Shown here: in pieces, positions 22,266 through 59,786 of the stretch
Layout: every line of letters begins with the position of its first letter
How positions within the stretch are numbered: position 1 is the stretch's first letter
Assembly (NCBI GenBank): GCA_045837725.1
Contig: JBEWZL010000270.1
Location: 310,001 to 369,786, forward strand
Source of the DNA: Vermamoeba vermiformis
Lineage: Eukaryota
Reading direction: 5' to 3'
DNA length: 59,786 nucleotides
Made by a program: the position numbers and the translations under genes
Notes under the pieces: model-generated
What the model was told of the DNA's origin: nothing
Seen by the model: only the letters and a program-made list of their open reading frames with translations
Database searches by the model: none

Positions 22266-22267
22266 CA

Positions 22268-38020: not shown

Positions 38021-41000
38021 TTAATGTGTCTTTACAGCGTACTTAATATTCAATTGTTGTAGTAGGGGCATAATTTCGCTCACACTATGATCTTCGTTGC
38101 TTATTTTGCACCAAGAATGGAGCACGATCAAGTTCAATTGATGAGGTTGGTTTAAAATATCTGCTATGGCGGTGCATGTTGCGGACTGGAAGGCGTGTGC
38201 AGGGTTTTTCCGAGTGTCCCACAAATGAAGGGTTCTTAATCGCGGGAGCATCGATTTCAGTGCATGAACGAAACTTATTTTCACAAATTTCACCGGATAT
38301 TCAGTCTGTGCTACGATTGGCAGCATCAAGTCTGTGATCGATTCTTGATTTTGCAGTGCGAATAAGAATTCATTTTCGCTTGCGTTTGCACCATGAAGAT
38401 CTTCATCGTTTCCGCTTAAATTGATCGGAAACATCATATGAAACTTTGTGAGTTTGTTCTTTTGTATCAGATCAATCAACGGGCCGTATTTTGTAAAGTG
38501 ACAATTGAACAGTACCACTGATGTGATTGTCGGACTCGATGCAATGTCGCTCATCAATTGTGCTATCAGTGCTGACTGTTTTTCGTTAGCACACTGCAAG
38601 TTCATGAGCTTAATAGACTTGAGAACGGAACTCGAGCCTATTGTGTAAAAAGTAAGTAAAGTCCGATAGCATTTAGAGATTCATTTGCTTACGAATGATT
38701 TGTGAAGCCTTGTGAATGGTGTGTTTGAGTGCCTTTTCGTCATTCAAATCAACGATCATTGTTTTGCACTCATTAGCATCACTTCGAATACTTGAATCGT
38801 ACATGCGTGCATTGTACTTCATTCGGTTGCACTGCTCGTGTTAGTCTAGAACGTACTATAATCATGACGCAAGTTTACCTTGGTGGTTAGTAACTGTCTG
38901 AACTCTTCTTCGCATTGCTCTTTGATCATTCGATTCGTTTGTTCTAATAATAAATTGAGTCGTTAATTAAACTAAAAGATTTATCACCTACTTCGGAGTT
39001 CAAGAATTTTGTTGCGTTGTTCATCCGACATGTCGTGAAAAGGAATGTCGTCTTCGTATTTGTGAATAAACAATTGTGCCAACGCGTCTTCTTCCTGCAA
39101 CTCTTGTCCGCTGTAAACTATTGCGTCTTCAACGAGATTCTTTTGCATATAATAAGCTGTTTTGTCATCATGGTCTGGTGCTTGGCCGATCGTTTCATCC
39201 CAAAGCTCGACCATGCTACAATAACAAGATGAGAAAAAACTTAAACGAAGGCAGGCTATAATCTTAAACTTACTGCCTGATGATACGCTCATCCACAGAA
39301 TCATCTTCCTCGTCGGAATTTTCCATGACTGAGATTTCAAAATCTTCAGGGTCCTCTTTGGCGTCAAACTGGGCATGTTGGACGCACTTTTTGAGACTTT
39401 CTTGCACGATACTACGCATTGGGTCGTCATTATAGTCTTCATCTTCTATGCTTTCGTTGGTATCGCCCTCTTCCAAGTCCATAATTGGCTCGTCAACCCA
39501 GTCACTATCAACGCTTGACGATTCGTCCGAGTAATCTTCGCTGTCAGAATTCATCACAATTGGATTCTCGTAATGTAAATCGCTCTTGTCAGTGTAAATT
39601 ATCGTTTGTTTTGTCCTATTCAGCTGTCCCATCTCTAGGGCTTTTAAAATATCTTCAGAGCCCACATCTACTACATTCTCGTTCGGTTTTTTCTCTGATA
39701 CAACCGACGACAACGTGCGGTGAATAAATTCACTTAATATATGGACTGCAAACTCTGTGGTAATCGTTAACCCACACGAATTCTATTATAATTGGAATCA
39801 AACTTACCAGTGGCATTGGGTGTGGCACAAAAAACTCCTCCTTTTCGCATTAAGCGATGAATGCCGTGACGAACTGAAGAAAAAATTGAACATTCAGCTA
39901 TTATTTGGCGTTAGTATCACTTACTTGACAGCCAATCCGGCATTGTTTCAAAATCATCGTCAGTCGCAATATCTGCTTGAAAATAACTTGTCCACGGATT
40001 GACTTGCTGCGGAAAATTGAATCCCCATTGCTTATCGGCGAGGTAAAACACTTCCGAGATATTGTTTTCAACCTCGAACACTAGTACAACATTAATATTA
40101 TAGGCTAGGTATTAGATTATTACCTGAATAAACAGAGCTCAAGTACGGGTACTTCTTTTCCGCGCCTTGTTTCAAGAACAACAAGTCCACCATGCGAAGC
40201 TTTTGAAGCGCACAAATCATCGTTGAAATGATTGACGAAGATTGATCGAGTGTTGTAGCGTATTTGAGCTGATTAACAACTTCATCGACGACATCGCCTG
40301 TTCGAACCACGAATCGCTCGAATTTGGCTGTCTGAAGTGACACGTGTCAACACGTGAATAAGTTTTAACTTGCAATAGCAACACGAACTTACACTAATAA
40401 GCGCTGAATCGGGACAGCATGGCGCGGGACAATGACCCATCAACACTGCACTCAGCACGTGAATGAACAATTTGAGCGAGCGTTCTGACGATGACACATT
40501 TCTTGTAAGAGATTAGTCCTATAACGTCATATCAATCGTTTTCTGCGTGACTCACTCGAAGATTTTGTCTCTTTGTTCAATGGAAATAAAACTATCGTAT
40601 TCACTCTCATCTTCAACATCGCTCTCGTCTTCGTTTACTTCCGTCTTGAGTGCTTCAGATTCTTGCGTATGAATAACATCTTTGTCGTCATTTTTATCAT
40701 TATCCGCACTGTTAGTGTCAATCACGTCGCTTTCGGAGGCATCCATTTCTTCGTCTGACTCGCTGTGGCTGCGTTCATCCCAACTGTAATCGAAATCTTT
40801 GCTGTTCAAGATATCACGCAGCAGCGATCGATCCCAATCCCAATCCAAGTCTACGTCAAGTTTGGACTCAAGTTCGACAATTTCTTCGTCTTTCTCATCG
40901 TACAAAGCCAATTCGTTTTCTTCTTTGAGACAACTGCACTCGGAGTTTTTGAACGCTTCGACAACAGGCTTTGTGTCACGCCATAGTTCAAATTGGCGAT

Positions 41001-44176: not shown

Positions 44177-46203
44177 ATGAACGGCAAAACCAACAAATCA
44201 GGCGTGCCAATCTGGAAAGAAGCGGTTTACGACATTCCCAATCAAACCAACCCAGAAAAATTGTATGACCGTATAAAGACGCTAGAAGAATTATATGTCA
44301 GTGAAGATAAGTTCAAAAAAGAAGATTGGCAATACTTAACGACATGGATGCAAGACAAAAAAAACAAAATAAATCACGTAACGTTCAGAGCGCTCACAAT
44401 TTCATCCGAGAATATTCCATATATCACAGATATATTAATGAAAGGCAAGAACATCAAAACCATCATTTTCAACAATTACACGATCCAAAATGACAGCGCA
44501 TTCAAAGATTTTTGTTCCCTCATCGGCAAAATCAGAAACATTGGTAGACTAAGAATAACAATCAACGAATTATCCCAATATCAAGTCCAGCAACTCCAGG
44601 CGACGATAGATCCGTCAATAAATGAAGTCGAGCTCATCCACGAACCAGTAAGTCTGCTTCCAATAATATTATAGCAGACTTAGGATCAATTAACGTAATT
44701 ATTAGATATATATTGCAATGTCCGACAATTCTATTTACGAACAAGTGACGAAGAAGCGAAGATTTGTTATTGGAATGAAGGAGATCAATTATATTCGCGA
44801 CTTTGACATTGGCTGGTGCCTTTTCAATGCTTTAAAAAATAGCCCTGCGCTGGAACATGTCTCAATCCAATCATTTGCGTTAAGCCCTTGGAGTTTGCCG
44901 ATCGCAGCAGATGCGATCGCACAAAACAAATCTGTGACACGAATAGCCATTGGTACCGATGGATGGGACAATCATCGATATGTATTTAAAAATCTGATAG
45001 AAAATGATAGAATAACACATATTGATATACAAGCAACCTTTGGCGTGACGCAATACTCGATCAGCTCGCTCAGCAAGTCTTTAACACGTCCGAGCCTGAC
45101 TTCGATGAAAATTGAATGTGATATGCAAGGAGATACGTTCAAAGATATACTCAACATCCCAAACATCACAGATCTGCAAGTCGCTGGCGGGTTTCGCGGA
45201 TCTAGCCAGTTTGCTGACATGATAGCACCAAATAAACACGTGACAAAGCTCCATATATTCGGTGGATCAACGAAAGGATTCGAAAAGATATCAGCGATGT
45301 TGTTAGGACAACTTACGAAGCTAACACTATCTCACGTCACTGTGAAAAAGTTTGACATCTGTCAAGTTTTGAAAAATAGCACGTCTATTACCGAGCTGTC
45401 CGTCATAGAAGACGGAAACGGACTAACGACCTATTATAACGGACCTTCTCGTAAGTGCCTTATCTCTTATATAGCCGGGACTGATTGTTCGTGCAGATCG
45501 GTACGATAACATTGCGGATATTTTGGAAGTCAATTCAACGCTCAAAAGTTTGACACTCAAAGTGCCACTAAACGACGTCAAAACTTTTTTCGAAAAATTC
45601 ACAGCAGGACTGAAGAATAACAAAGTACTGAAGCATTTGGACGTACACATTATCGAAGATTGCTTTGACATGTTTGCAGAAGCCCTGATCGAAAATGACA
45701 CTTTGACATCTCTTCGCTTAGGCGGACTCGAGCCATTGCCAAACCAACTAGTGAAATTCAGCCATGCAATCGCTACTAACAAATCACTAGCAAGCTTGAC
45801 TGCCGAAGGGATCGCCTGTTGGACTGAAGTTTTGTCGGTTTTGAAGACTAACAACTCACTGCAAAAACTTAATTTAACGACCGCGCTCGGAGCTGTTCCG
45901 AATGAATTCTTCGAAAAATTAGATACTGTGTTGCAAACGAATCAGTCTTTAACTTCATTAGGACTACAGAAAGTTCCGATCCCGGTCCACATCCAAAAAG
46001 TTTTGCAACGAAATCATCTGGCGTACCATCAAAATATTGATAGAATATACTCTTTTATTACTATGATGCGCCTACGACCAGAAGCATTCACTTCAGTTCT
46101 TCCGCTCGAGATCTGGGTTATGATTTTCAAGCGGATCCAGTTACCCGGGTGCAGAATCAACTTCGCGGAAAAATTTATGGAGGGTCTTAAAACTGTATCA
46201 TAA
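44177..46203 (+). CDS. RNI-like LRR family protein with C-terminal F-box-like tail, 3 exons
   Basis: ORFs 44177, 44718 and 45523 joined by GT-AG introns; tail VLPLEIWVMIFKRI; paralog of the 20477 gene. Confidence 0.8.
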
Positions 46204-46662: not shown

Positions 46663-46824
46663 TGTAACACCACGCACGAAAAGAGTTCGCGCTAGGCGAC
46701 ATATCGCCTGAAATCTCGCGATAATCTCGCGAGATAAAAACACTTTGTATCGTTATTTATTGTACGCTTTACTCTTATATCAATAAACACAACTTACCGT
46801 TATTATTCCGACGGTTATTCTACA
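46663..46824 (+). repeat. 5' LTR (162 bp)
   Basis: TGTAACAC...TTCTACA; differs from the reassembled 3' LTR at one base. Confidence 0.95.
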
Positions 46825-46826
46825 TT

Positions 46827-46836
46827 TGGTTCCGAT
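46827..46836 (+). promoter_or_regulatory. Primer binding site (TGGTTCCGAT; possibly tRNA-Glu)
   Basis: TGG 2 nt after the LTR; complementary to a ...AUCGGAACCA tRNA 3' end; tRNA identity is inferred. Confidence 0.6.
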
Positions 46837-46954
46837 TTTGCGTGAACCGTTGTTGTAGATTCGGTTGTGGAAATTGATTCGGAGTTGGCAAAACGTTGTA
46901 TGAAAATTGTAATAACATCGCCAATAATTCCAATAATTATATTACAAGCCGCCT

Positions 46955-49042
46955 ATGTCGTCAGACAATCGCATCCGTACGCGCTCTCAATCGCAGCGAG
47001 ACCTACTCGCATCTCAAGGGGGAGAAGCCCCGCCCAGCCAGCAGCCTAGCTCAAACGCTAGAGCGGACAGCTCAGCGCCTGGGACTACCTCGACGGCCGC
47101 TCCCCTAGCACTGAGCTCAGAGGGGACGCGGACCAACTCAGGGATGAAAGACTCCCGCGAGAGTTCACGGTCGAGAGCTAGTTCTCACGCCTCTGCAGCT
47201 GCTCCTAAGTCGCACGCCTCCCAGGCAGAGCCCGGCAATCAAGCTAGTCCGCGCAAAAGGTCAAGATCTCGCCAATCTGACCAAAGGGATGACAATGGCC
47301 GCTCCCCTAGCCCCAGGAGCTCGAGCCCCTCTCCCAAGCGCCGTGACCGAAGCTCGCGAAGGCACAGACGTCGATCCGAACGTAGAGACCGGCGCAGAAG
47401 TCGCCAATCAAGGTCCCGTTCTCGTGATCACAGATCTGATCGCCAAAAGCACCGCCGCTCTCGCCATTCTAAGTCTCGTTCTCGTTCCCGCTCTCGCTCA
47501 GCAAGCTATGACAGCTCTTCAAGAAGCCGCTCAAGAAGTGCTTCTCGCGATCGTCGCCGATCTCGGAGAGAAAAATCTAAGAGAACAAGCTCTAAGTCCC
47601 GCAAGCAGACGCGCACGCGTGAGGAAGGCACCAGACACTCGCGTCAACGCGATGTAGCTCAGCAAGGTGCCGTGATAACCGTTACTGAGAATGAGACAAC
47701 TCGTGACACAACTCAACAACCTCCACCTCGCGAACGAATTGACAACAGGGGGACTCAAGACAGCCCTTCTGACAACAATTGGTCCCGCCCCGACCAAACT
47801 GCTCAAGACGCGCAGTTCGCGCAAGAAGTTCAGGAGTACGAAGAGTTCCGTCACATGACAATCGATTCAATCAAGCAGCTTCAACTCGAGACCAAGGACA
47901 ACGCAAAGCACATACAGCTACTTGGGGAATCCCTTTCTGATATCAAGAGACAACTGACCAACCTCGTACACAAGATCGAGGAACACCAGCAGGATTCTGT
48001 CCGTCAGTTGCAATTCTTGTCTGAGCCCAATTCAGGCGCGGAAGAGACTCGTGGTGCAGCTCCTAAGCGTGTTATTCCTGTTCATGGCTCAGCAGTTGCC
48101 AAGCGCTACACTCGCAAAGGCTCTGAAGTACCTAGCCGCCAAAAGCCTCTCAATGAGAAAGAGATTCCGAGTGACGTTCTCTTTTATACCGGCATGAACA
48201 GCGAGGTCAGCTTACAACGCTGGTATACCAAGATCTTGCTTTGGCAAGCCATCCTCGACTGGAGTGATCGGCAGACTCTGCAATGCATGTGCCTCAGAGT
48301 TCGCGGAGAAGCTGCAACCTACATCGAGAGAGGAGATGTCATTGGCCCAGCTACAACTCCGGAGGACCTGTTCGAAATGTTCAGTGCTAATTTCTCAAAC
48401 ACTGCAACGGAGCTCTCGCTTTCACTCACCTTGGATAGCATTCACATGCAGACCAATGAGGGTGTCAGCGACTACAATGCACGCTTCATGAAGACTCTGG
48501 CTCAAGTGGGAGACATTTACGAGTTGCGCAAGCTGATCGCGTACATTAAAGGCCGAAGCAGCAAGTACCGAGACATCATGGCCCTTGCACGACCATCAAC
48601 CCTTGCTGCTGCAATGCAAGCATTGTCCCTCACTACCGCGTTCCAACAAGCCACCAATGTAACACCAACAGGCAACACGCCTGTTACAGCTACACCAGCC
48701 ACTAGTTCCGTGTTACCAGCTGTCAGTGTCGCCAACACTGAGATGACCCAGTTGCTACAGACACTGGTCCAGTCCGTTAATAAGATGTCGACATCTCTGG
48801 AACAGTCAAAGTCTAACTTCAACAATAAGCCATTCTACCAGCGCTTCCAAGGACAGAACCAAAGTCAGACCTCAACCTCTGGGCAACCTAAGACCCAGAT
48901 CCCCTCAAGTGCTGCAACACCCAAGCCGAATGGCTCAAGCTTCCAACGCTCTATGAATAACAATCCACGAGTGAGCGCAGCCCTTGAAGAACCACCCTCA
49001 GAGGAACTGGCTGAGGAGGACATTGATCAGGAAAACGCCTAA
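46955..49042 (+). CDS. gag: Gag-like protein with long N-terminal Arg/Ser-rich region
   Basis: 695-aa ORF between PBS and pol; capsid-like segment WSDRQTLQCMCLRVRGEAATY and QTNEGVSDYNARF. Confidence 0.85.
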   Translation: MSSDNRIRTRSQSQRDLLASQGGEAPPSQQPSSNARADSSAPGTTSTAAPLALSSEGTRTNSGMKDSRESSRSRASSHASAAAPKSHASQAEPGNQASPRKRSRSRQSDQRDDNGRSPSPRSSSPSPKRRDRSSRRHRRRSERRDRRRSRQSRSRSRDHRSDRQKHRRSRHSKSRSRSRSRSASYDSSSRSRSRSASRDRRRSRREKSKRTSSKSRKQTRTREEGTRHSRQRDVAQQGAVITVTENETTRDTTQQPPPRERIDNRGTQDSPSDNNWSRPDQTAQDAQFAQEVQEYEEFRHMTIDSIKQLQLETKDNAKHIQLLGESLSDIKRQLTNLVHKIEEHQQDSVRQLQFLSEPNSGAEETRGAAPKRVIPVHGSAVAKRYTRKGSEVPSRQKPLNEKEIPSDVLFYTGMNSEVSLQRWYTKILLWQAILDWSDRQTLQCMCLRVRGEAATYIERGDVIGPATTPEDLFEMFSANFSNTATELSLSLTLDSIHMQTNEGVSDYNARFMKTLAQVGDIYELRKLIAYIKGRSSKYRDIMALARPSTLAAAMQALSLTTAFQQATNVTPTGNTPVTATPATSSVLPAVSVANTEMTQLLQTLVQSVNKMSTSLEQSKSNFNNKPFYQRFQGQNQSQTSTSGQPKTQIPSSAATPKPNGSSFQRSMNNNPRVSAALEEPPSEELAEEDIDQENA

Positions 49043-52000
49043 GTCGGAGTGGCTCCTGCTCTCCACCTCCGACTTCCCTACCAGGGCAGGACCTAGTCAA
49101 TAATGTCGCCGACATCTCGTCAGTGGTGCCAGCGTCAATCTCGAGGACTGACCCACCCACAGAAACCAGGCCATCTGGGGTGGTTGAACCCATCAAATTA
49201 GACACTAAGACAGTGCTCTATGCGCCTATTCAGCTGTTCAACAGACAGATCCAAGCTTTGTTGGACACTGGAGCCTCGTGCAATCTAATCTCATCACAAC
49301 TTGTCAAACGCCTACTTGACCAGAAGCAGGACATTCGAGTCAACCTACAGCCACGTCAGGCTTCTGCCATCAACGACAGCAAACTCAAGATTGAAGGTAC
49401 TGCTATTCTACCTATCCGGTTTGCAAATGGCCTCAGCTATGACGTGAAGTTTGCCCTGTCTCCAGAGATCAATCACCTCGTAGTGTTGGGCATGGACTTC
49501 ATCAGGTTGACAAAGCCGTGCATGGACTTTGGCTCTGAGAATGTGTGGTTCCACGAGTCAACCCCTGACTACCCACAGCTACCCTTGAAGCGTAAGCGCA
49601 CAAAGCCCAAGTCAACGCGACAGAGGCGCAGAGAGTTGCGCGCAGAGCAACGTGAATTTATCAACTCTGTTACTGGCTATTCAATCAGTGACTTACTGGT
49701 CGACCCCTCCGAGGATACTGCTCGCGTGCCAGTTATCACACATGGCCACCTTAGTATACCTGCGCGATCAGAGACACTGTTCTTGCTACCAACACCTGTG
49801 CACTATCGCTCTGCTCTAGTTGTGCCAGCAACCAACTTTTACCACCAGTATGGAGTACAATTGGCTCTAGCTGTAGTTAGCATCAAGAACGGGAATGTTC
49901 CAATCCGTATCATCAATGCTAGTGAGCGAGAGGTCATCATCCCTCCATTACGGTGCATCGCTCACTTAGAGACTTATGAACTCATCCAGACCTCTGACGA
50001 AGTCAACTCCGTAGATGACAGTCCTATGGATGAGGAATGGGTTGATGCGCGCTTCAAATTCACGAACACTAAGCTGAGTGCAGCCCAATTGCATGAAATC
50101 AAGCTATTAGTGTGGCGCAATCGAGACAGATTCAGTCAAGTGTTAGGCAACACCAATGCAGCTGAACACCGGATCGATCTCACAACTGACACTACACCGA
50201 AAGCACACGGATATCGAATACCAGAGGCTCATTTGAAGGTGGTGCAAGGCGAGATAGACCGTATGCTGAATCTAGGAATCATTAGTCCCTCGAAGTCGCC
50301 CATGTCAGCTCCTATTGTCTTGGTGAAGAAGAAAGATGGCACGCTACGGTTCTGTGTTGATTATCGCAAACTCAATGCGATCACTCAGAAGGACGTCTAC
50401 CCACTGCCCCGTATCGATGACATCTTGGCCAAACTCTCTGGCAATATCTTCTTCTCTACATTCGATGCTGACAGTGGCTTCTGGCAAATATCTATCCGAC
50501 CAGAGGACCGTGCAAAGACTGCGTTCACTAGTCCCTTTGGGCTATTCGAGTTCAATAGGATGCCCTTTGGGCTGTGTAATGCACCTGCTACATTTCAACG
50601 TTTGATGGATGTCGTCCTCTCAGGCCTCCTATGGAAGAATTGCCTGGTCTATATGGATGATATCATCGTATTTGGTCGCAGTTTCGACGAGCATCTCGAC
50701 AATTTGACTCTAGTACTTGACGCCCTTCGAGCTGCCAACATCACTCTCAAGCATCAAAATGTAAATTGTTCTGCGAGGAGATTCAATTCCTTGGACATGT
50801 CGTGTCTTCAGCAGGAGTTGCAACAGACCCAGAGAAGGTGAACAAGATCAAGGACATGCCAGCGCCACGCAACGCTCATGAAGTGAGAATATTCACTGGC
50901 CTCACTGGGTATTACAGAAAGTTCATTAAGAATTACGCCACAAACCCTTAAATAAGCTACTGCGTAAAGAAGGAGAGTGGCAATGGGACACTCCACAGCA
51001 ACAAGCAGTTGACGAGTTGAAGAGGAGACTAACAGAAGCACCTATACTGGCGTTCCCTGACTTCAATCTGCCCTTCGTACTGTTCACAGATGCATCAAAT
51101 CACGGCATTGGTGCGGTGCTCTCTCAAGTTCAAGATGGCAAAGAGGTGGTAATCTGTTACTTCTCTCGAACCCTAAACGCTGCTGAACGAAACTATTCTA
51201 CTACGGAACGAGAATGCCTGGCAATAGTTGACGCCGTCAAGAACTTCCGCTACTACCTAATTGGTCGTCGATTTGAAGTAGTGGTGGACCATCACAGCCT
51301 TCGATGGTTGAAGACAGTCGGAGACAATTCACAGCGCTTGGCTTGTTGGAGTTTACAGCTACAAGAGTTTGATTACGACGTCTCTTATCGTCCTGGTAAA
51401 CAGCACGCCAACAGCGATGCCCTCTCACGACTTACTGGAGAAGTTGTCAATATGGTCAGCACAATCAGTGACTTCCGTGATGAGCAAATGCGAGATCCAA
51501 TGCTGCGTAGCTACATTGAATACTTGACAAAGAAGACTCTTCCACCTGATGAACTTCTGCGACAAGACATTATCAAGGCATGTCGCGAACTGTCAGTGAT
51601 CGATGGACTGCTATTTAGAATCTGGTATCCTCAAGGCCGTCGTAACAGCGAACCAAGATCTCAACTTGTCGTTCCGTTGACTTTATACGCCAAAGTTATT
51701 GAAGAGCATCACGACTCAAGCATTGCTGGACACCTTGGTTTCTTCAAGACATATGAACGAATCCGTGAACGCTATTTCTGGGATCATATGCTTCAAGACA
51801 TCGCTACTTGGGTCTCGACCTGCGAGCAGTGCATCCGTCGTAAGTGAACAAAGTTAACTGGGCTACTACAACCCATACACTCTTCCGCACCATTCGAAAC
51901 AATAGGAATGGACATATTAGGCCCCTTCAACCCTACACGCAATGGCAATCGCTACATTATCGTCATTGTCGACTACTTCACTAAGTGGGTTGAAGCGTTC

Positions 52001-53080
52001 GCACTTCCAGATCAATCAACAATGGAGATTGCAAAGAAATTAGTTGAAGAAGTTATATGCCGACATGGTGCTCCTCGTCGTATCCTCACTGATCAAGGAA
52101 GCAACTTCTCGTCAGCACTGGCTCAAGACATCTACCGTGTGTTGAATTCAAAGAAGGTGCGCACAACAGCCTACCATCCACAGACGGATGGCTTAACAGA
52201 AAAGTTCAACCACACGCTTGCTACCATGCTGACTCATTATGTCAACGAGTTTGAAGATGACTGGGACGACTATATCAATTATGTCCTATTTGCTTATCGC
52301 ATTGCAGTGCATCACTCTACTAAGTACTCTCCGTTCTTCTTGTTATATGGACGACAAGCACGAATGCCCAGTAACTTAGATCAATTCGAAAGAGTGGATG
52401 AGTCACAACCAGACATTGACGAGTATGCACGCGACTTGTTGCGTAAGTTGAACATAACCTACAGCGATGTACGCGACAACAATCTATTAGCAAAACAACG
52501 TCAAAAGAAGCAATACGATCGCGTAAGGATCAAAGAAAGCATTAAGGTTGGAGACAAAGTTTATTTGGATTTGATAGTTGGATCAAAACTTTCGTACAAG
52601 AACGAAGGGCCTTTCAAAGTCACACATGTGAAAGGTTTAGTCTGTGACATTCAACATTTAGAAAACAAACGCGATGTTAGACGAGTCAACGTCAGTCAAC
52701 TACGACACACACCAACTAGAATTAACAACAACGGAGAGAGCTCTTCTACCGACTCTCAACAGAACCACGAGTCTCATGTGGATAACAAAGAGATATTGCA
52801 ATCAGCTGAGCCGCCTACCAGCGAGATTGTGCGCAAGAAGAAAACACGAGAGCCAACTCTTCTCAAAGATTTAACAAGAATCAAAGACAGCTTGTCAGAA
52901 TCGAATTTTTCCTCCAACAAGAAATTGGTTCTTCAATTGCTCGGCAAAGGATCGCCTTTCATTTCCTCCAGCAGATTAGAACAACAGTACGACAAGCAAA
53001 TCAAAGCAACGGACAATGCCGAAGAATTGAAGAAATTTATTTCTGAAGTCATTCGCGACAACGGAGCGTCGCGTCTTTAA
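49027..53080 (+). pseudogene. pol: Pol polyprotein (protease, dUTPase-like, RT, RNase H, integrase) with two frameshifts and one in-frame stop
   Basis: LLDTGAS; RFCVDYRKLN; YMDDII; TDASNHGIGAVL; HHCC zinc motif; TDQGSNF; frameshifts at about 50750 and 50941; TGA at 51845-51847. Confidence 0.95.
49030..49091 (+). promoter_or_regulatory. Predicted -1 ribosomal frameshift signal: slippery G GAA AAC plus H-type pseudoknot
   Basis: pol frame is -1 relative to gag; stem 1 AAGTCGGAG (49041-49049)/CTCCGACTT (49067-49075); stem 2 TCCTGCTCT (49054-49062)/AGGGCAGGA (49083-49091). Confidence 0.75.
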
Positions 53081-53096
53081 AAGATGGGGGGAGGAA
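53079..53096 (+). promoter_or_regulatory. Polypurine tract
   Basis: AAAAGATGGGGGGAGGAA directly before the 3' LTR. Confidence 0.9.
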
Positions 53097-53214
53097 TGTA
53101 ACACCACGCGCGAAAAGAGTTCGCGCTAGGCGACATATCGCCTGAAATCTCGCGATAATCTCGCGAGATAAAAACACTTTGTATCGTTATTTATTGTACG
53201 CTTTACTCTTATAT
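53097..53214 (+). repeat. 3' LTR, first part
   Basis: Matches 46663-46780 up to CTTATAT. Confidence 0.95.
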
Positions 53215-53429
53215 GGCAAGATCCACGAGTCTCAGCTTATGAGAAATAGTAATATGTAAGCAGAACAAGAAGAAAACTGTAAAAGTTTAACAAAAATAAA
53301 GGCGTTCGATGATGAAACTGCAAAATTTAAAGATAAAAGGAGTAGTAAAATAAATTCTAAGAATACCAATTTATTTAGTTAGTAGAGCAAAAACCTTTGA
53401 GCAAGGATAAAAAGATCTACAAAAAGTGC

Positions 53430-56158
53430 TTAGTCGTCTTCTTCTGTTAAAGCAAATCGACGGACTGGTGACATTTGCCCGTCTTCTGCATCACCAACAT
53501 CAGCTTCTTCAACATTGTTGTTGTTGTTGAATTTCGGCATTGGAGTGGTTCCTCGGACACTTGGAGTAACAGGCAACAAAGGCTCATCAAAGGCGTCTGG
53601 CAAAAAAGCTTTGGCTGGAGTGCTTGGCTGTTGGGCTGTCCCCTCAGGTGCAGCAAGAGAGGACACAGCAAGGGCAGTAGAGACAGCTAGAGCAGCCTGG
53701 GGGTCATCGACAGAGCGGCTCAAAACTCGGCAAACGTGGGCTTTAATCTTGTTCTTCAGTGGGCCGTTGGTGATGTAGCCCACATAGCTGCGGCTTGATA
53801 GGGCAGCAGCAATGTAACCGGTCTGTAAATGAGTTAGTAAAGCAAGGCGAAGGATACAACACGACATACACCAGATAAGTTGTTGAGCTCCAAAATAACA
53901 CCATCAGCAGGAGTGTAGACAGAGAAGATGAACCACAGAACCTGGACTGGAGGTTGGCGGGGAAACAATGCCGTTGAGGTCAAACTGAGCTTTTCACGAA
54001 GCATCTCGTAAGCAGGAGGTGTTTTAAAGACACCATGCTGCCAATTTGGGTTGTAATGACCATGCTTGACCCAGTTGCCTTCATTGGTATTAAAACATGG
54101 AGCATTGCCTGCACGAAGGCGCAAGAAGTAGAAATCCCACGTGGTTTGAACAGGATTAATGCCAGTGAAGGACTTAACAGGAGGGGCGCTCAGGCATGCA
54201 GTGTACTTGAACTCGAAAACCAAAGGATTCTGTGGTTGAGAAAGCGAGTGAAAAATTGAATACGCTGCACTTGGATCCGCAAGAACGACCAGGCGAGAAG
54301 AAAGGTGCATGCATTTCAGAATTGGCTGCAGCAAGGAGTTGCGGAATTGCTCAGCATTTTCAAGCACCAAGAAAATAAGATCTGCTCTGAGCTGCAGCTG
54401 AATATGAGAGAAGGAGTTCACCACTCGGAAATGCGGGTCAAAATGCTTTTCAACATTAGCCACCAAGTCTTTGCGGAAGGGAACATCCTCGTCCACGTCA
54501 CTCTCGGATTCATCATTGCCAGGCGCAGTAATGACAGCGCCTTCATTATCGTCCTTCTTCTGCGAAACGTAATGAGAAAAGAAAAACGCGTGGCGCGTTT
54601 TTGGTGACTTACATTTGTACGTGACTTTTTTTGTGGTGGTTCTGCATCTGCAGGTGCAGCAGGGTCGCGGTCTCGTTTTCGGGATTCCTTTTCTGGAACG
54701 GGGAGATCAACTGGCAAGCGTTCTTTAAGAACCTTATCTGCACCTTTCGTGTTCTTTGAGGCAGTAGGTGACTTCTACAACGAGTCAGATTGGTGGAGGC
54801 AAAAACGCGTGGCGCGTTTTTAAGGGTACTTACAGGTACTGTTTTCGTTGTTGCAACAGCTTTGACTTTCACACTTTTCACAGCAACTGAGGCGTTCAAA
54901 TCTTTGATGAAGGCTTGCATTGCAGCACTCTCCAGATCATTTGCCGTAGCGGTCTCCAATGCTTCAAAAGTTCCAGCTTGGATTGCTTCCACATAGTCTT
55001 CCAGAAGATCCGCATTGGGTGCCTGCTGTCTGACATAATCAACCATTGAAACAATGTGTGCTTGACGAGCAACGATGCCAGAAAACTCTGAAAATGATTA
55101 GATGGTAAAAACGTGCCACGCGTTTTTGCTTACCAGTCAAACTTGCTTTGTTGTCGTTTTTGATAGCCCACGACACAAATTCCTCAATGGCAGCAAGTTT
55201 GTACATATCGTCCAACTTCCAGAATGCTTTGTTCTCAGTGATGCAAGATAGCTTCATGGGGTTTTTGTAGCCGTACTTCAGATGCAACTCCTTGAGTTTC
55301 TTGTAAACAGCGTTTTGGGCAATGTCTTCCGCTCCTTTGTTTGTTAGCTTGTTGTACGCAGTGTACAACTTCTTGGCCGAGTCCAACGCGAGCCCATCAC
55401 GTTTTCCCTGTCATCCTCGTTAGAAAGAATTATTGGCCTTCAAATATTGCTACTTACAGACAACTGGTGAATGCGTGCCCAGTTTACCGTGACCTTTTTT
55501 CCCTTCGTTTTTGTTCGTACACCAGGCATTTCAAGGTACCGAATTAGCTTCTGCAGGTACTCGAACCAAGGGGCTTTGGCAGTACCATCTTGTGCTTTAG
55601 CGTTATTTGCACCAGCAAGAACCTCGCGTTCTTCTTCAGTCATGGTAACTCCGTTGAGAGAAGCCTTCAAAATGAGGCATGGCCACTCTTCAATATCACT
55701 ACAAAAAGTTAGCTAGAGCAAAAACGCGCCACGCGTTTTTACTCACTGGCTTTGGAAAACTTCAAAACGGTGATTTCCACCAAGAATTAGGTACTCGGGC
55801 TTCTTATCTTTGTTAATTTTGTCTTCTTTGGGAAGCTCTTGTAACAGAAAAGGCTCGCTATAATCCAAGCCTTTGTCGAAGTTTCCTCCACCCATCTTTA
55901 TTATTTGTTGCTCGATGGTTTTTTTGCCTTCTTCCGTCACCAAACGGTAGTTTCCTGAATGGAGGTTAGTAAAAACGCGCCACGCGTTTTTGCTCCCGTA
56001 CCTCGTTTTGTCATTTGAGACAGCAGAACATTGCGTGGCTTATCGTACTTCAGCCATTTCTGGAGCAGTTCTATGGGCTTGTCTATGTTGACGAGCTGTT
56101 GTTCCTCGTCTGTATCCTCCTGTTTCTTGGAGGTATTTCTTTTATTTGTGTTGCTCAT
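53430..56158 (-). CDS. Transposon cargo protein (792 aa): N-terminal ParB/sulfiredoxin-like domain plus C-terminal degenerate beta-class N6/N4 DNA methyltransferase-like fold
   Basis: Seven GT-AG introns (55955-56001, 55699-55746, 55408-55457, 55088-55133, 54775-54833, 54560-54612, 53823-53869) give a 2379-nt open frame; EYLILGGNHRFEV...EWPCLIL; FPRQPPVQVLWFIFSVYTPADGVILELNNLSGTGYIAAALSSRSYVGY. Confidence 0.8.
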
Positions 56159-56883
56159 GTTTGAAGGGAATGAATAATGACCGAATAAAATTTTTTTTTG
56201 TTCGATGGTTTGACCAAACGTTGACCGTTGACCAAACGTTGACCAGGTCCAAAAGGAAAAACGCGCCACGCGTTTTTGCTATTCATATGGTTAATCACAA
56301 CAAGAATGGACACACCTCTTCTTGATGTCGTTCTTGCTCTGCCTCCGCACGAAATTGAGCCTGCTATTTTGGACGTTTTGCAGCATCATCGCGTCACTCC
56401 GCACTTGCGTGTTCTCAAGCATGCTTCTGTCCAGCATGCTCTGCTATCAAATTACGGTAGATCCCTGCGGATTGCGGCAAGCAGTGAACGCACTTCAGGG
56501 TTCTTCCGTGGATCTTTGTCCTCAATGCTTCACGCTTCGATTGACAAGGCAGCAGTTGCTTCATTGCTTAATGTATCACCAAGTAGCGTTTCTCGTGCTC
56601 TTTCCATTTCAAATGAACGCTATCACAATGGGTTAATGACTGGCATTCACAACAAGTTTGCTTCCCCCACCAAGTACAAAGTTAGTCGACTTCCCGTGGC
56701 CACCTCCATTGTGACTGATTGGATAATTTCACACTGTCGCCCTTCTGCAAACTCGGCAAATGTTGTTCGCAATCGCAATGCTGATGGCACATGGTCTTAT
56801 GAAATAATGCACTACCACAATGAATCAATTGCAGAGCTGTTCACCAAGTACAAGGCAGGTACCAAAAACGCGTGACGCGTTTT
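54582..56883. repeat. Seven dispersed 21-bp palindromes AAAAACGCG-N3-CGCGTTTTT
   Basis: Copies start at 54582, 54801, 55107 (one C>T), 55720, 55971, 56257 and 56864 (TGA spacer, one T short). Confidence 0.95.
56210..56277. promoter_or_regulatory. Putative bidirectional promoter: four TTGACC hexamers plus one palindrome
   Basis: TTGACC at 56210, 56221, 56228 and 56239, in the 147-bp gap between the divergent ATGs (56158 and 56306). Confidence 0.5.
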
Positions 56884-58343
56884 CTAATACCCTTCCTTCA
56901 GGTGCAACATCAAGCAGATGCTGTTGGCAAATCTACGTTCTATTCACTTGTGCCCAAATGTGTTTATCTTCAGCCCTACTATTCTGGCCTCTGCCCAACA
57001 TGTGCATCTGATAAACATTGGCAAATGATGCTTAATCGAAACAGGCGCTCTTGGCATGCCGACTGCCACTGCCAGTGCACCTACTGCACAGTTTACAACC
57101 ATGCTCTGTCATGCCCTGCTGATTGTGTTTGCAAAGGTGATGAGTGTCCTATTGAAATGTCAAACATTCCACAACAATGGATTGTTCCTCAGGCCAGCAA
57201 GGCTCTGCGCAATGACCGCGACAAGCATGCCCCAAATCAAATGGTACATGTATGGCAGCAAGGCACGCGCCTTCAGTTCATGGAGAATTGCAGTCTTGTT
57301 GCTGAAAGGTGCACTGATCACAAGCTTCATGTTTCTTGGCAAAAGCAAGTTATTTCAACACTTAAGAAAAAGCTTCCTTGGAACACTGTAATGATGCGCT
57401 GGGATTTCTTGATGAACTATTCCCATGTTAGCTCAGTTGAAGTGGGCAATGCTTTCTATGGGCGCCGCCAGTCTACTGTTCTAATTGCCACTGTCTGGTA
57501 TCATGGACCTGACAGTACGCCAGAATCCCCAAAAATCACCAAAACCTACCATGCATTTGTCAGCCCTTACCTGTCCCATTCTTCTTTGGTTTTTCAGAAA
57601 GCATTTGCTGCACTACTTCCACAATTGGATTTGCACACAGATGTTGTCAACTGCATCATTCTCTCCGATGGTGGCATGCAGCATTTTAAAAACAGAATCT
57701 CAATGCATTGGGGAACAACTGTCTTCAACAAGTTCAACATCTGCTTACGTTGGATAATTGACCCTGCTTACCATGGCAAGGGTGAATGTGATGGCCGTGG
57801 TGCTAAGCTGAAAAAGAAAGCTAAAATTCATGTTCTCAAGGAGATGGTTTCCTTGATACTCCAGAACAGCTAGCCAATTATTGGAATACAGTGCCAGGAG
57901 GCACTTCTTCGTTTCTCAACATAGACTGGGAGGACACAGAACAGGATGTGCAGACGATAAATGGCATTAAAGCCTGCTATGACTTCTGCTTCTCACGCAA
58001 TGAAACTCAGTTGTACATGAGGAAATGGCCTTGTGTGTGTGCCGACTGCCTTGACTTTAACTTTGGCAGTTGCAAGCGAGGTGCTCAAGTAGGAGAATGG
58101 CTGTTTCGTCAGACAAAGCCAACCAATGTAAATCACCCAAAAGGACTCAACCCTCCTGTTGTTGTGGAAGAAGAAGTCGAACACTGTGAGGTTGAGAAAA
58201 TTGTTGGTAAACGTATGTTCAAAGACAAAGTACAGTATCAGATTAAGTGGCTTGGTTTCACCGAAGAGTACAATGAATGGAAGTACGAAGATGAAATGGA
58301 TTGCGAAGACCTTGTTCTTGCTTTTGAAAACGATCACAAATAA
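56306..58343 (+). CDS. Sola2-like DDE/DDD transposase with Cys-rich regions and C-terminal chromodomain; GC-AG intron 56855-56901; 1-nt frameshift at about 57840
   Basis: Catalytic-core motifs WDFLMNYS, LSDGGMQHFKN, YHGKGECDGRGAKLKK; CVCADC; EVEKIVGKRMFKDKVQYQIKWLGFTEEYNEW. Confidence 0.85.
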
Positions 58344-58443
58344 AAATGCAACCCTTTTATTTTTGTACAATAACAGCAATTTCAACATAAAAATAAATTC
58401 TTGTAAATATTGGCGGTTTTGGCTGAGACTCGTGGATCTTGCC

Positions 58444-58491
58444 ATATCAATAAACACAACTTACCGTTATTATTCCGACGGTTATTCTACA
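58444..58491 (+). repeat. 3' LTR, second part (begins with the duplicated ATAT)
   Basis: ATATCAATAAACAC...TTCTACA identical to the 5' LTR end. Confidence 0.95.
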
Positions 58492-58845
58492 TAGCCATAC
58501 TTCAAGTGCATTCTTTTCGGTAACATTGAAAGATAGCGTTCGATTGGACACGGCAGAATTGGATCTCGTTAATTCTTTGAAATTCGTCAAATCTTCAGTC
58601 CTCCATTTTCCTTTAAATTGCTCCATAAATTATTAGATTATTAATTTAATTTCAATTAAAATATTTTCGAGCAAATATTTAATTCGTGCTGGGATGTGGC
58701 TTACAACATCGACAGAGGCCGGTTTAACTACGATATGCAGCTCCATTATACTAGTAAATTATAGTAAAATAATTATTGTACACCCCGTGTGCTTCAATCT
58801 AACGCGAAACGCGTTTATTATTTTCGACGACGCAACCAAGGAATT

Positions 58846-59786
58846 TTATTTATCGTGTTTCAACAATTCAGCCCAATGTTTGTCGTATGGATGACCCATC
58901 AAGCTGAAAATATGCGTCCACATCTCCGACGGCATCAATTGAAACAAGTCACTGCGTCGTATATTATGAACGATGATTGCTGCATCGAGGTACAAATTTC
59001 TGTTGCGAGTGATGTACCCGTCAATAAATTTAAAGGTCTTGGCCGATCGTGCTGTCATCTTATTCTCGGTTATCTTGCACGACAACAGCTGGGAGTTGTT
59101 ACTGAGCGCTTTTTCTATCATTTTAAACTGGCCATTGTTATTCGCATTAGTGCAACCAATGGTGATGCTGCGCAAATTGCTGTTCGTGTTCAAAACGAGA
59201 ACCAATTCGTTCACGGACATGCCTGTAACGCTTAAAACTTGCAAAGTCTTGTTCTTGGCAAGTAATTTTGAGTACGGATTGAATTTTTTGTTCAGGTTGT
59301 ACACCTCGCCAAAACCGAAGCCATCAAGTGTCAAACTTGTCAAAGTGTCATTTTCGTACAACGACTGGCAGACATCGCTAACTGTTTTCTGGAATAGTTC
59401 ACCGGTCAATTTGAGCTTTGTGATCTTCTTATTAACTTTCAAGATGTCTCCTATCTTGCTTGTAGGTGAAGATAACGTCAGATCTGTGATCGAGCAATGA
59501 TCTTTGAGAACTGAAACAAGCTCCGGTGTAATTAAACTACCGTTAATTGTTGCTTCTAGTGATAGTACTTTCAGTCCTTGCTTGTTTTGAAAGTGCACTA
59601 TTGTCGGATTTACAACTTGATTTCCATTGATCAATTCTAACCTCGTCAAACTCTGCTTCAATAGTAATGCCGTGCAAAAACGTTCATATTCTTCGGTTGA
59701 TTCTAATGTGGAGGGCAATTTGTGTTTCAGACTTTTGAGCGTCTTATTGGGGAACAATGCAATAGCATTCGGCTCATTATTTATGA
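58846..59786 (-). CDS. RNI-like LRR family protein with C-terminal F-box-like tail; runs off the window edge
   Basis: LYENDTLTSLTL, LAKNKTLQVLSV; tail RNRNLYLDAAIIVHNIRRSDLFQLMPSEMWTHIFSLMGHPYDKHW. Confidence 0.8.
   Translation of the reverse strand, partial: INNEPNAIALFPNKTLKSLKHKLPSTLESTEEYERFCTALLLKQSLTRLELINGNQVVNPTIVHFQNKQGLKVLSLEATINGSLITPELVSVLKDHCSITDLTLSSPTSKIGDILKVNKKITKLKLTGELFQKTVSDVCQSLYENDTLTSLTLDGFGFGEVYNLNKKFNPYSKLLAKNKTLQVLSVTGMSVNELVLVLNTNSNLRSITIGCTNANNNGQFKMIEKALSNNSQLLSCKITENKMTARSAKTFKFIDGYITRNRNLYLDAAIIVHNIRRSDLFQLMPSEMWTHIFSLMGHPYDKHWAELLKHDK

What the first reader, a model, noticed from the sequence alone, without database searches (positions are those of the whole stretch)
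54582..56883. Seven parS-like 21-bp palindromes placed in the transposon's own introns
Seen: AAAAACGCG-(TGG/CCA)-CGCGTTTTT lies in 5 of 7 introns of the ParB-like gene, in the single transposase intron and once between the genes. Spacers occur in both orientations, the remaining intron sequence is unrelated between copies, and I saw no copy outside the element. Near-perfect conservation in otherwise divergent 46-59 nt introns implies selection. Hypotheses: (a) loading sites for the element's ParB-like protein, analogous to parS, with introns letting sites sit inside coding regions; (b) 9-bp RNA hairpins between donor and branch point that control splicing; (c) CpG-rich methylation-sensitive sites or host ACGCGT (MCB-like) factor sites.
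Basis: partly seen in the sequence, partly recalled or inferred. Interest (0 to 1): 0.9.

Follow-up and report, generated by a model that had tools for sequence, protein, structure and literature searches.

The report
Palindrome array inside a transposon's introns
A recently active jumping gene of an unidentified microbial eukaryote carries seven copies of one 21-base palindrome, six of them tucked into its own short introns, most likely as docking sites for a DNA-binding protein that the element itself encodes.

Summary
AAAAACGCG-NNN-CGCGTTTTT occurs 7 times (at most 2 mismatches allowed) in 59.8 kb, against 0 expected. All 7 lie at 54582-56884.

They sit in a 5,229-bp DNA transposon (53215-58443). 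It has perfect 22-bp inverted ends and a 4-bp ATAT target duplication. The element is inserted in a retrotransposon LTR whose partner LTR shows the empty site.

Five of the 7 cargo-gene introns, the one transposase intron and the 147-bp divergent promoter each hold one copy.

The transposase has an RNase H-like core and a chromodomain. The cargo is weakly but reproducibly ParB_N-like at its N-terminus and N6/N4-methylase-like at its C-terminus. That architecture is published for an Ectocarpus Sola1 element.

My best reading, at 0.4, is sequence-specific DNA sites for an element-encoded protein. Introns are the only free space that lies spread along the element's coding interior. Binding is untested, and splicing is inferred only: no RNA reads lay on the element.

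The one sister lineage I could fetch (about 51% protein identity) has no such palindrome, including in its intron at the matching place.

Verdict: a new variant of a known kind, of moderate to high interest.

The parts
53211..53214 (.). Left target-site duplication, ATAT
   Evidence: the 5' LTR (46663-46825) matches 53097-53214 and 58444-58492, with a 4-bp overlap (46777-46780). Sequence read.
53215..53236 (+). Left terminal inverted repeat, GGCAAGATCCACGAGTCTCAGC
   Evidence: a perfect 22-bp inverted pair, with 2 matches in the window against 0 expected.
53430..56158 (-). Cargo gene: 8 exons, 7 introns, 792 aa. ParB_N-like N-terminus and N6/N4-methylase-like C-terminus.
   Evidence: One search gives a single open frame after removal of 7 GT-AG introns. 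P0159 is 63% identical over 137 aa of exon 7.
53823..53869 (-). Cargo intron 7 (47 nt), no palindrome. It splits methylase motif I.
53778..53983 (-). Methylase motif X to motif I region (cargo aa 625-677), interrupted by intron 7
   Evidence: a profile built from 21 bacterial PF01555 domains scores E 8.5e-5 for one sequence, and 9.9 bits against at most 3.2 in 1000 shuffles.
54560..54612 (-). Cargo intron 6 (53 nt), holding palindrome P1 at 54582-54602
54775..54833 (-). Cargo intron 5 (59 nt), holding palindrome P2 at 54801-54821
   Evidence: A copy variant 54815 C>T lies inside P2, at 186.5 of 575.1 depth in X1.
55088..55133 (-). Cargo intron 4 (46 nt), holding palindrome P3 at 55107-55127 (one CpG to TpG mismatch)
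   Evidence: the intron's RNA fold is only -3.6 kcal/mol.
55408..55457 (-). Cargo intron 3 (50 nt), no palindrome
55699..55746 (-). Cargo intron 2 (48 nt), holding palindrome P4 at 55720-55740. It splits the ParB box-like segment.
55659..55805 (-). ParB_N-like segment (cargo aa 103-135, ...YLILGGNHRFEVFQS/HDIEEW...)
   Evidence: own ParB_N profile; language-model neighbours
55955..56001 (-). Cargo intron 1 (47 nt), holding palindrome P5 at 55971-55991
   Evidence: The L001 frame breaks after the same MTKRG residues.
56159..56305 (.). Divergent promoter spacer (147 bp), holding palindrome P6 at 56257-56277 and a tandem TTGACCAAACGTTGACC pair at 56210-56244
   Evidence: repeat family D8
56306..58343 (+). 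Transposase gene: N-terminal exon with weak HTH hints, RNase H-like DDE/D core, C-terminal chromodomain. One-base frameshift near 57841 in this copy.
   Evidence: table 4: the X3 contig has one extra base behind 57841, and X1 shows it at 0 of 713.1 depth.
56859..56917 (+). Transposase intron (59 nt; a second AG at 56900-56901 is out of phase), holding palindrome P7 at 56864-56884
   Evidence: L001 has a palindrome-free stretch of about 90 nt, closed in frame, at the matching place.
58188..58331 (+). Chromodomain
   Evidence: PF00385, E 1.7e-9, 37.9 bits (cut-off 25.1)
58422..58443 (-). Right terminal inverted repeat
58444..58447 (.). Right target-site duplication, ATAT
   Evidence: The empty-site joint 53210>58444 is seen in X1 contigs (table 5).

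Best explanation
The seven palindromes are sequence-specific, double-stranded DNA sites for a dimeric protein encoded by the element itself. The most likely binder is the ParB_N-like/methylase-like cargo protein. The N-terminal DNA-binding part of the transposase is the alternative.

The element is compact: about 83% coding, with two divergent genes. The only sequence free to hold a 21-bp site, apart from the two terminal untranslated stretches, is the promoter spacer and the stretch between the 5' splice site and the branch point of each roughly 50-nt intron. One site per available slot gives an array spaced 219-613 bp across the central 2.3 kb.

By analogy with ParB/parS and KorB operator arrays (recalled knowledge), the protein would load at these sites. 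It would then coat, bridge or mark the element's DNA, either to control its own two genes from the shared promoter or to tag the element as self.

Shown: the sites, their placement, the mobility of the element and the domain leads.

Inferred: splicing, any binding, which protein binds, and the consequence.
For: 1. Seven near-identical 21-mers against 0 expected, and no isolated half-site anywhere in the window.

2. The sequence itself is kept, not just the pairing. There are 0 compensatory changes among the seven. The one stem mismatch (P3) is uncompensated and leaves the RNA fold of that intron at -3.6 kcal/mol.

3. The central triplet flips relative to transcription: UGG in cargo introns 1, 2 and 4, CCA in introns 5 and 6. 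A symmetric DNA-binding dimer would tolerate this.

4. One copy lies outside any intron, in the 147-bp divergent promoter.

5. The element is CpG-poor: observed/expected 0.61 without the palindromes, 0.70 in its other non-coding DNA, against 1.16 for the rest of the window. Yet the palindromes keep 27 of 28 possible CpGs.

6. The cargo has a ParB_N-like segment and an N6/N4-methylase-like motif X to motif I region.

7. The same accessory architecture is published for Sola1-1_Ec32, with the suggestion that such proteins bind and modify their own transposon (PMC12477816). Red-algal Plavaka elements have inverted-repeat arrays next to a ParB-like accessory gene (bioRxiv 10.1101/2025.02.11.637652).

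8. The inverted ends share nothing with the palindrome, so these are not the transposase's end-binding sites.
Against: - No binding data exist.
- The ParB and methylase assignments rest on low scores (5.5-9.9 bits). Pfam and PHROGs found nothing on single exons, PDB sequence search gave nothing useful, and the fold prediction of exon 7 failed at pLDDT 34.
- No helix-turn-helix was shown in the cargo.
- No DPPY-type catalytic motif was seen in the cargo by eye, so it may not methylate.
- The only sister lineage fetched (L001/L002, about 51% identity) lacks this palindrome and any other repeated palindrome.
- Copies in organism A include a variant with a CpG to TpG change inside P2, so the constraint is not absolute.
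- Six of the seven sites are transcribed, so an RNA role cannot be excluded.
- Relative to all non-coding DNA of the element (874 nt, of which 409 nt is intron), 6 of 7 in introns is only mildly more than chance. My binomial estimate is about 0.045.
Confidence: 0.4

Rival explanations
1. RNA hairpins in the pre-mRNA. A 9-bp stem with a 3-nt loop between the 5' splice site and the branch point tunes splicing of the element's own transcripts. It could, for example, slow or gate intron removal and so limit transposase and cargo dosage.
For: - Six of the seven lie in introns, always between the 5' splice site (5-12 nt upstream) and the branch-point-like CTAAC/CTAAT/CTGAC.
- The isolated hairpin folds at -8.1 kcal/mol.
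- Five of the six intron folds are -9.6 to -17.8 kcal/mol, against -2.6 and -3.7 for the two palindrome-free introns.
Against: - One copy is in the promoter spacer, not in an intron.
- All stems are the same sequence, with no covariation.
- The P3 mismatch is uncompensated (-3.6 kcal/mol).
- The loop is UGG in three cargo introns and CCA in two.
- Two introns of the same gene do without it, as do 7 of 7 strict-criteria host intron candidates of 47-81 nt.
- Shuffle z-scores of whole introns are modest, from -0.4 to -3.8.
- No RNA reads were available to test splicing.
Confidence: 0.2
2. Binding sites for a host transcription factor (an ACGCGT/CGCG-box type dimer) that drives or times transcription of both divergent genes, with the intronic copies acting as enhancers.
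For: - P6 lies 29 bp upstream of the transposase ATG in a 147-bp bidirectional spacer.
- Each palindrome carries at least one ACGCGT: 8 in the element.
Against: - The half-site AAAACGCG occurs 0 times outside the element in 54.5 kb that holds many host genes. My composition estimate is about 2 expected.
- ACGCGT occurs 10 times outside the element, against about 12 expected by the same estimate.
- One copy per intron along 2.3 kb of gene body is unusual for a promoter element.
Confidence: 0.15
3. No function of its own. A short palindrome spread within the master copy by insertion, repair synthesis or gene conversion shortly before the burst, and survives only where it does not break coding sequence.
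For: - The sister lineage lacks it, so it is a recent gain or a loss.
- The family is a very recent burst. 116 of 159 X1 pieces are at least 99% alike. Depth on the element is 606-1554 per bin, against 1.5 for the flank.
- Decay variants exist: P3, P7 and 54815 C>T.
- Cargo intron 1 and the transposase intron share 85% over 40 nt, which hints at copying between introns.
Against: - It is confined to the element: 7 of 7 in 8.7% of the window.
- No target duplications flank the palindromes (listing).
- There is at most one copy per slot, and never two.
- 27 of 28 CpGs are kept in a CpG-poor element.
Confidence: 0.2

Closest known systems
Sola1-1_Ec32 of Ectocarpus, with its ParB-like plus DNA-methyltransferase accessory gene (PMC12477816; passages read)
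   Same: A cut-and-paste element with an accessory gene on the strand opposite the transposase. Its product combines a ParB-like domain with an N4C/N6A-type methylase domain. The authors suggest such proteins bind and modify their own transposon.
   Different: That element is 21.5 kb with a 1104-aa protein; this one is 5.2 kb with a 792-aa protein. The passages I read mention no cognate sites and no intron-borne palindromes, and I could not see the supplements. Here the catalytic methylase motif was not found, and the transposase carries a chromodomain.
Plavaka elements of Bostrychia, with PAG3 (ParB-like N-terminus plus 2OG oxygenase) and adjacent tandem inverted-repeat arrays (bioRxiv 10.1101/2025.02.11.637652; passages read)
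   Same: A transposon-encoded ParB-like protein with repeated inverted repeats inside the same element, read by the authors as possible self-binding sites.
   Different: That is a different superfamily with a different enzymatic partner domain. Its repeats lie in tandem beside the gene. Here single sites are dispersed, one per intron and one in the promoter.
Bacterial ParB-parS partition sites and the KorB operator array of plasmid RK2 (recalled knowledge, not from a call)
   Same: Short palindromes, several per replicon, sometimes inside genes, bound by a ParB-family dimer that then acts at a distance.
   Different: No ParA partner exists in this two-gene element. The host is a eukaryote with spliceosomal introns. 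The arginine-rich GERR box reads GGNHR here. Binding is unknown.
Sola2-type elements (Bao and Jurka 2013, PMC3627910; passages read)
   Same: AT-rich 4-bp target duplications of the AWWT type, ATAT included, and short inverted ends of 12-21 bp.
   Different: I could not test homology of this transposase to Sola reference sequences. Assignment to Sola1, Sola2 or Sola3 stays open.
Introner elements, meaning intron-generating mobile elements (recalled knowledge)
   Same: The same short sequence recurs in several introns.
   Different: Introners make whole introns that are alike from end to end and spread through host genes. Here only 21 nt are shared. The sister lineage L001 has interruptions at the places matching two of the palindrome-bearing introns, without a palindrome. 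No host intron candidate carries the palindrome.

Membership tests
Sola superfamily of cut-and-paste transposons | 4-bp AT-rich target-site duplication and short terminal inverted repeats | tested here: met
   The TSD is ATAT and the ends are a perfect 22-bp inverted pair. The empty site is present in the partner LTR and in X1 contigs. The published Sola2 pattern is AWWT (PMC3627910).
Sola superfamily of cut-and-paste transposons | DDE/D transposase with an RNase H-like core | tested here: met
   The model has pLDDT 87.3. Foldseek finds 9 PDB chains at E<=0.001: retroviral integrase cores and one RNase H1 chain. The Metnase transposase domain follows at E 1.5e-3. D168 and D256 are nearly invariant in 66 aligned sequences.
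Sola superfamily of cut-and-paste transposons | Sequence homology to Sola1, Sola2 or Sola3 reference transposases | not testable with these tools
   Pfam has no Sola model (PMC5751038), and no family matched here. Repbase and the published alignments were not available.
ParB-plus-methylase accessory proteins of eukaryotic transposons | ParB_N (ParB/Srx) domain at the N-terminus | tested here: inconclusive
   Pfam found nothing on single exons. For exon 2, 5 of the 30 nearest Atlas clusters are ParB_N and 8 are DUF6551. My own 13-sequence ParB_N profile scores E 1.1e-3 on aa 103-135, with 0 of 1000 shuffles reaching the real score.
ParB-plus-methylase accessory proteins of eukaryotic transposons | N6_N4 DNA methylase domain (PF01555): SAM-binding motifs X and I | tested here: met
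   For exon 7, 26 of the 30 nearest Atlas clusters are PF01555. My own 21-sequence profile aligns aa 625-677 (FPRQPP...LSGTG) at E 8.5e-5, with 0 of 1000 shuffles reaching it. The scores are low, and Pfam on single exons was negative.
ParB-plus-methylase accessory proteins of eukaryotic transposons | Catalytic (D/N/S)PP(Y/F/W) motif IV | tested here: not met
   I saw no such motif in the printed 792-aa translation. The profile match covers only motifs X to I. The place where I would expect it reads LVLENAEQ, and WVLDSADQ in P0159; that placement is my own reading.
ParB-plus-methylase accessory proteins of eukaryotic transposons | Encoded on the strand opposite the transposase, inside the same element | tested here: met
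   Searches show divergent genes 147 bp apart. L001 has the same layout.
ParABS partition system (parS sites) | ParA ATPase partner | tested here: not met
   Only two genes fit between the inverted ends.
ParABS partition system (parS sites) | Palindromic site bound by the ParB helix-turn-helix | not testable with these tools
   The palindromes are present. No helix-turn-helix was shown in the cargo, and there is no binding assay.
Introner-like intron-generating elements | Whole introns alike from end to end, and present in unrelated host genes | tested here: not met
   Only the 21-mer and the splice signals are shared. 0 of 7 host intron candidates carry the palindrome. All 7 copies lie within the element.
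Rfam RNA families | Match to a curated structured RNA | tested here: not met
   There were 0 matches at gathering score over the whole window.

The most novel reading that the evidence does not exclude
A eukaryotic DNA transposon carries a parS-like loading-site array hidden in its own spliceosomal introns. Its ParB-like, methylase-derived cargo protein loads at these seven palindromes on DNA and spreads over or bridges the element. This gives the transposon a private, sequence-addressed chromatin or epigenetic state that travels with every new copy. Placing the sites in introns lets them lie inside coding regions without cost to the proteins.
Probability: 0.3. Interest if true: 0.85.

Novelty: new variant of a known kind. 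Interest (0 to 1): 0.6.

Why it matters
Transposon accessory proteins that pair a prokaryote-type ParB module with a DNA-modifying module have been noticed only recently, in brown, red and green algae. What they recognise is unknown.

This element is compact, very recently active and probably present in hundreds of copies. Its candidate recognition sites are sharply defined: one 21-mer, seven times. That turns a vague idea, 'binds and marks its own transposon', into a bench test with a known DNA probe and two candidate proteins.

It would also be a clear example of introns serving as safe parking space for cis-acting DNA sites inside genes.

If the RNA reading is right instead, it would be a case of a transposon tuning its own splicing with a standard hairpin.

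Tried and rejected
**Whole genome.** Confinement is shown only for 59.8 kb.

**RNA evidence.** No listed holder of the stretch is on record as RNA. Two RNA runs of the same species label laid 0 and 4 reads. The 4 reads lay on the LTR and its flank, not on the element. This is no test of expression or splicing.

**Single-exon searches of the cargo.**
- Pfam, PHROGs and PDB sequence search gave nothing meaningful.
- tblastn against phage records gave no match.
- A search for longer homologues gave none. The near-length search gave one, P0159.
- AlphaFold of exon 7 with a 2-row alignment failed at pLDDT 34, so no fold search was made on it.

**Sister elements.**
- The first alignment was too diverse for a scan.
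- The metagenome scan gave only L001 and L002.
- Viral contigs gave none, and prokaryote genome contigs gave none.

**Motif in public collections.** It occurs at 1 site in IMG/VR. In the genome-contig collection (596 billion bases by the tool's description) there are 54 stretches with one site each. No genome shows an array, so there is no sign of a known prokaryotic parS-type repeat.

**Host identity.** The monooxygenase gene I chose hits metagenome and bacterial-labelled proteins at about 50% identity, so it gave no taxon.

**Rfam.** No match.

**Papers.** The Iyer 2011 and Yuan and Wessler 2011 papers are not held.

**Rejected ideas.**
- Palindromes as transposase end-binding sites: no similarity to the inverted ends.
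- Mini-MITE with target duplications: no flanking direct repeats.
- Introner origin: see the membership test.
Full report
**1. The observation**

The pattern AAAAACGCG-NNN-CGCGTTTTT, with up to two mismatches allowed, matches seven times in the 59,786-bp window. The starts are 54582, 54801, 55107, 55720, 55971, 56257 and 56864. None of 100 dinucleotide-preserving shuffles gave a single match. Five copies are perfect. P3 has one CpG-to-TpG change in a stem arm. P7 has one change at its last base, and its spacer reads TGA, not TGG or CCA.

The 8-mer half-site AAAACGCG occurs 13 times in the window, and all 13 are inside these palindromes. Only 16 perfect hairpin-type palindromes with stems of 8 bp or more exist in the whole window, and six of them are these. 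The last copy ends at 56884, not 56883.

**2. What carries them**

The palindromes lie in a 5,229-bp element (53215-58443). It has perfect 22-bp inverted ends flanked by ATAT on both sides.

The element sits inside the 3' LTR of a Ty3/gypsy-type retrotransposon. The 5' LTR (46663-46825) matches 53097-53214 and then 58444-58492, with a 4-bp overlap. So the partner LTR is a ready-made empty site and the target duplication is 4 bp. Contigs of a DNA run of the same organism also show the uninterrupted LTR (joint 53210>58444).

On the element, the per-bin contig word depth in that run is 606-1554, against 1.5 for the flank at 58539-58700. Of the 159 laid pieces, 116 are at least 99% alike. Depth is not a copy number. 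Even so, the contrast points to hundreds of near-identical copies, that is, a very recent burst. Four water-metagenome runs of one study hold 22-41% of the stretch's sampled words. Of these I laid X3 only; 13 of its 20 laid pieces are at least 99% alike.

**3. The two genes**

*Cargo gene (minus strand).* Removing seven GT-AG introns of 47, 48, 50, 46, 59, 53 and 47 nt joins eight exons into one 792-aa frame, from the ATG at 56158 to the stop at 53430-53432.

*Transposase gene (plus strand).* It starts at 56306 and has one intron, 56859-56917. The nearer AG at 56900-56901 is out of phase. The gene ends at 58343.

This copy has a one-base frameshift near 57841. A metagenome contig carries one extra base there, which keeps the frame open as in the homologues P0001 and P0005 and in L001. 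The organism's own run shows the extra base at 0 of 713.1 depth. I cannot say whether the amplified family is frameshifted or whether this is a systematic read error.

Splicing is inferred from frames, from splice and branch signals, and from homologues. No RNA read lay on the element.

**4. What the proteins are**

*Transposase.*
- The C-terminus is a chromodomain (PF00385, E 1.7e-9).
- The 323-aa second exon has 510 relatives at E<=0.001 among 1.84 billion representatives. Of the ten I scanned with Pfam, two carry chromodomains and none has a Pfam transposase family. One named member is an uncharacterised scallop protein.
- A 66-sequence alignment has two nearly invariant aspartates and a conserved HGKGxCDG stretch in its consensus. 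It gives a confident model with pLDDT 87.3.
- Its best PDB matches are retroviral integrase cores, RNase H1 and the Metnase transposase domain.

So this is an RNase H-like DDE/D transposase. The AT-rich 4-bp duplication fits the Sola superfamily: Sola2 is published as AWWT, with ATAT included (PMC3627910, passages). Pfam has no Sola model (PMC5751038, passages). I could not compare the protein with Sola references, so the superfamily call is probable, not shown.

*Cargo.* Single exons gave nothing in Pfam or PHROGs. The two recognisable regions are each split by an intron, which explains part of that failure.
- For exon 7, 26 of the 30 nearest Atlas clusters are PF01555 N6_N4_Mtase. For exon 2 the nearest clusters include ParB_N and DUF6551. 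These are leads only.
- To test them I collected real domains from bacterial genomes and built two profiles. I scored the spliced protein inside scripts.
- The ParB_N profile (13 sequences) aligns to residues 103-135 (...YLILGGNHRFEVFQSHDIEEW...). It gives E 1.1e-3 for one sequence. It scores 7.9 bits on the N-terminal 200 residues, against a maximum of 5.3 in 1000 shuffles.
- The methylase profile (21 sequences) aligns to residues 625-677 (FPRQPP...ELNNLSGTGY...), which are motifs X and I. It gives E 8.5e-5, and 9.9 bits against a maximum of 3.2 in 1000 shuffles.
- No (D/N/S)PPY-type catalytic motif was seen, so the module may be inactive.

This architecture is a ParB-like N-terminus plus an N4C/N6A-type methylase, encoded opposite the transposase. 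It is what was reported for Sola1-1_Ec32 in Ectocarpus, with the comment that such proteins may bind and modify their own transposon (PMC12477816, passages).

**5. Where exactly the palindromes sit**

- In each of the six introns the palindrome starts 5-12 nt after the first base of the intron.
- It ends just before a branch-point-like CTAAC, CTAAT or CTGAC.
- Without the 21 nt these introns would be 25-38 nt long. With it they are 46-59 nt, like the two palindrome-free introns (47 and 50 nt) and the seven strict host intron candidates in the window (47-81 nt, none with the palindrome).
- So the palindrome occupies the only unconstrained part of a minimal intron.

The seventh copy is in the 147-bp spacer between the divergent start codons, beside a tandem TTGACCAAACGTTGACC pair.

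The element's non-coding DNA totals 874 nt, of which 409 nt is intron. So 6 of 7 in introns is only mildly non-random once coding sequence is excluded; my binomial estimate is about 0.045. A fairer description is one site per available slot across the central 2.3 kb, with none in the two terminal untranslated stretches.

**6. DNA site or RNA hairpin?**

*For a sequence-specific DNA site.*
- All seven are the same sequence, with no compensatory change.
- The one stem mismatch is uncompensated and leaves that intron's fold at -3.6 kcal/mol.
- The central triplet is UGG in three cargo introns and CCA in two.
- One copy is not in an intron.
- The palindromes keep 27 of 28 CpGs. The rest of the element has CpG observed/expected of 0.61, with its other non-coding DNA at 0.70, against 1.16 for the remaining window.

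*For an RNA role.*
- Six of the seven are transcribed and sit between the splice site and the branch point.
- The hairpin alone folds at -8.1 kcal/mol.

I therefore favour protein-binding DNA sites (0.4) over splicing hairpins (0.2), host-factor sites (0.15) and functionless recent copying (0.2).

Which protein binds is inference. The inverted ends share nothing with the palindrome. The cargo is the ParB-like candidate, but the transposase N-terminal exon has weak HTH hints of its own (Pfam E 0.05-0.14).

**7. Sister elements**

The metagenome scan returned two loci (L001, L002) with about 51% transposase identity. L001 has the same divergent layout. It carries a remnant of cargo exon 1 whose frame breaks after the same MTKRG residues, and a stretch of about 90 nt, closed in frame, at the place matching the transposase intron.

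Neither locus has the palindrome or any other recurring palindrome. So the interruptions at those two places are older than the palindromes, or the palindromes were lost there. This argues against an introner-type origin. It also means conservation beyond this family is not shown.

In the organism's own copies a subfamily carries a C>T change inside P2, at 186.5 of 575.1 depth.

**8. Comparison with what is known**

ParB-like accessory proteins in eukaryotic transposons are in print: Ectocarpus Sola1, and Bostrychia Plavaka PAG3, which has tandem inverted-repeat arrays next to the gene (bioRxiv 10.1101/2025.02.11.637652, passages). ParB-HTH-fused adenine methylases in chlorophytes and chytrids are also in print (PMC4738411, passages).

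Four full-text searches found no description of a palindrome array placed in a transposon's introns. Supplements were closed and may hold repeat annotations I could not see.

Earlier notes of this scan mention bacterial IS21 elements with a ParB-like gene and a four-site array. These are unchecked leads.

The finding is therefore a new variant of a known kind: a likely cognate-site array for a recently recognised class of transposon accessory protein, with an unusual intron-borne layout.

**9. Verdict**

Interest is 0.6.

Noticed in passing
window 46663-53214 plus 58444-58492: A Ty3/gypsy-type LTR retrotransposon with short 163-bp LTRs and long gag-pol frames. The DNA transposon split its 3' LTR. 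The LTR has its own 9-bp-stem palindrome, ATCTCGCGAT-AAT-CTCGCGAGAT, at 46713-46735 and 53147-53169.
   Followed up: partly
window 57841: The transposase frame is broken by one missing base in this copy. A water-metagenome contig (X3) has the extra base at 6.16 of 6.16 depth. The organism's own run X1 has it at 0 of 713.1 depth. Either the amplified family is frameshifted or this is a systematic read error.
   Followed up: partly
window 56210-56244: A perfect tandem pair of TTGACCAAACGTTGACC lies in the divergent promoter, just upstream of palindrome P6. It contains four GTTGACC/TTTGACC units (family D8).
   Followed up: no
window 55745 to 55968: One X1 contig (depth 133.9) joins the sequence just after palindrome P4 to the sequence just before palindrome P5, skipping 222 bp that include cargo exon 2. 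This may be a deletion variant formed between two palindromes, or an assembly artefact; only 27 letters lie on the shorter side (table 5).
   Followed up: no
L001 2086-2320: Five different 7-8-bp-stem palindromes cluster within 235 bp, just downstream of the cargo exon 1 remnant in the sister element. They make up 5 of the 10 such palindromes in the 4,888-bp contig.
   Followed up: no
window 33305-34759: A Baeyer-Villiger/flavin monooxygenase frame. All 120 listed hits are about 47-51% identical. The few that carry an organism label are bacterial, and most are unnamed metagenome proteins. This may be a gene of bacterial origin in a eukaryotic genome.
   Followed up: no
window 20477-23290, 38021-38680, 44706-46203, 58846-59784: Several paralogous leucine-rich-repeat-like frames share a similar C-terminal tail (...PLEIWVKIFKRI... 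/ ...MPLEMWTHIFSL...). This looks like a locally expanded host gene family.
   Followed up: no
window 53215-58443: The element's CpG observed/expected is 0.70, or 0.61 without the palindromes. The rest of the window is at 1.16 and the neighbouring retrotransposon at 0.93. Either the element is specifically exposed to CpG loss or it brought the depletion from elsewhere.
   Followed up: partly
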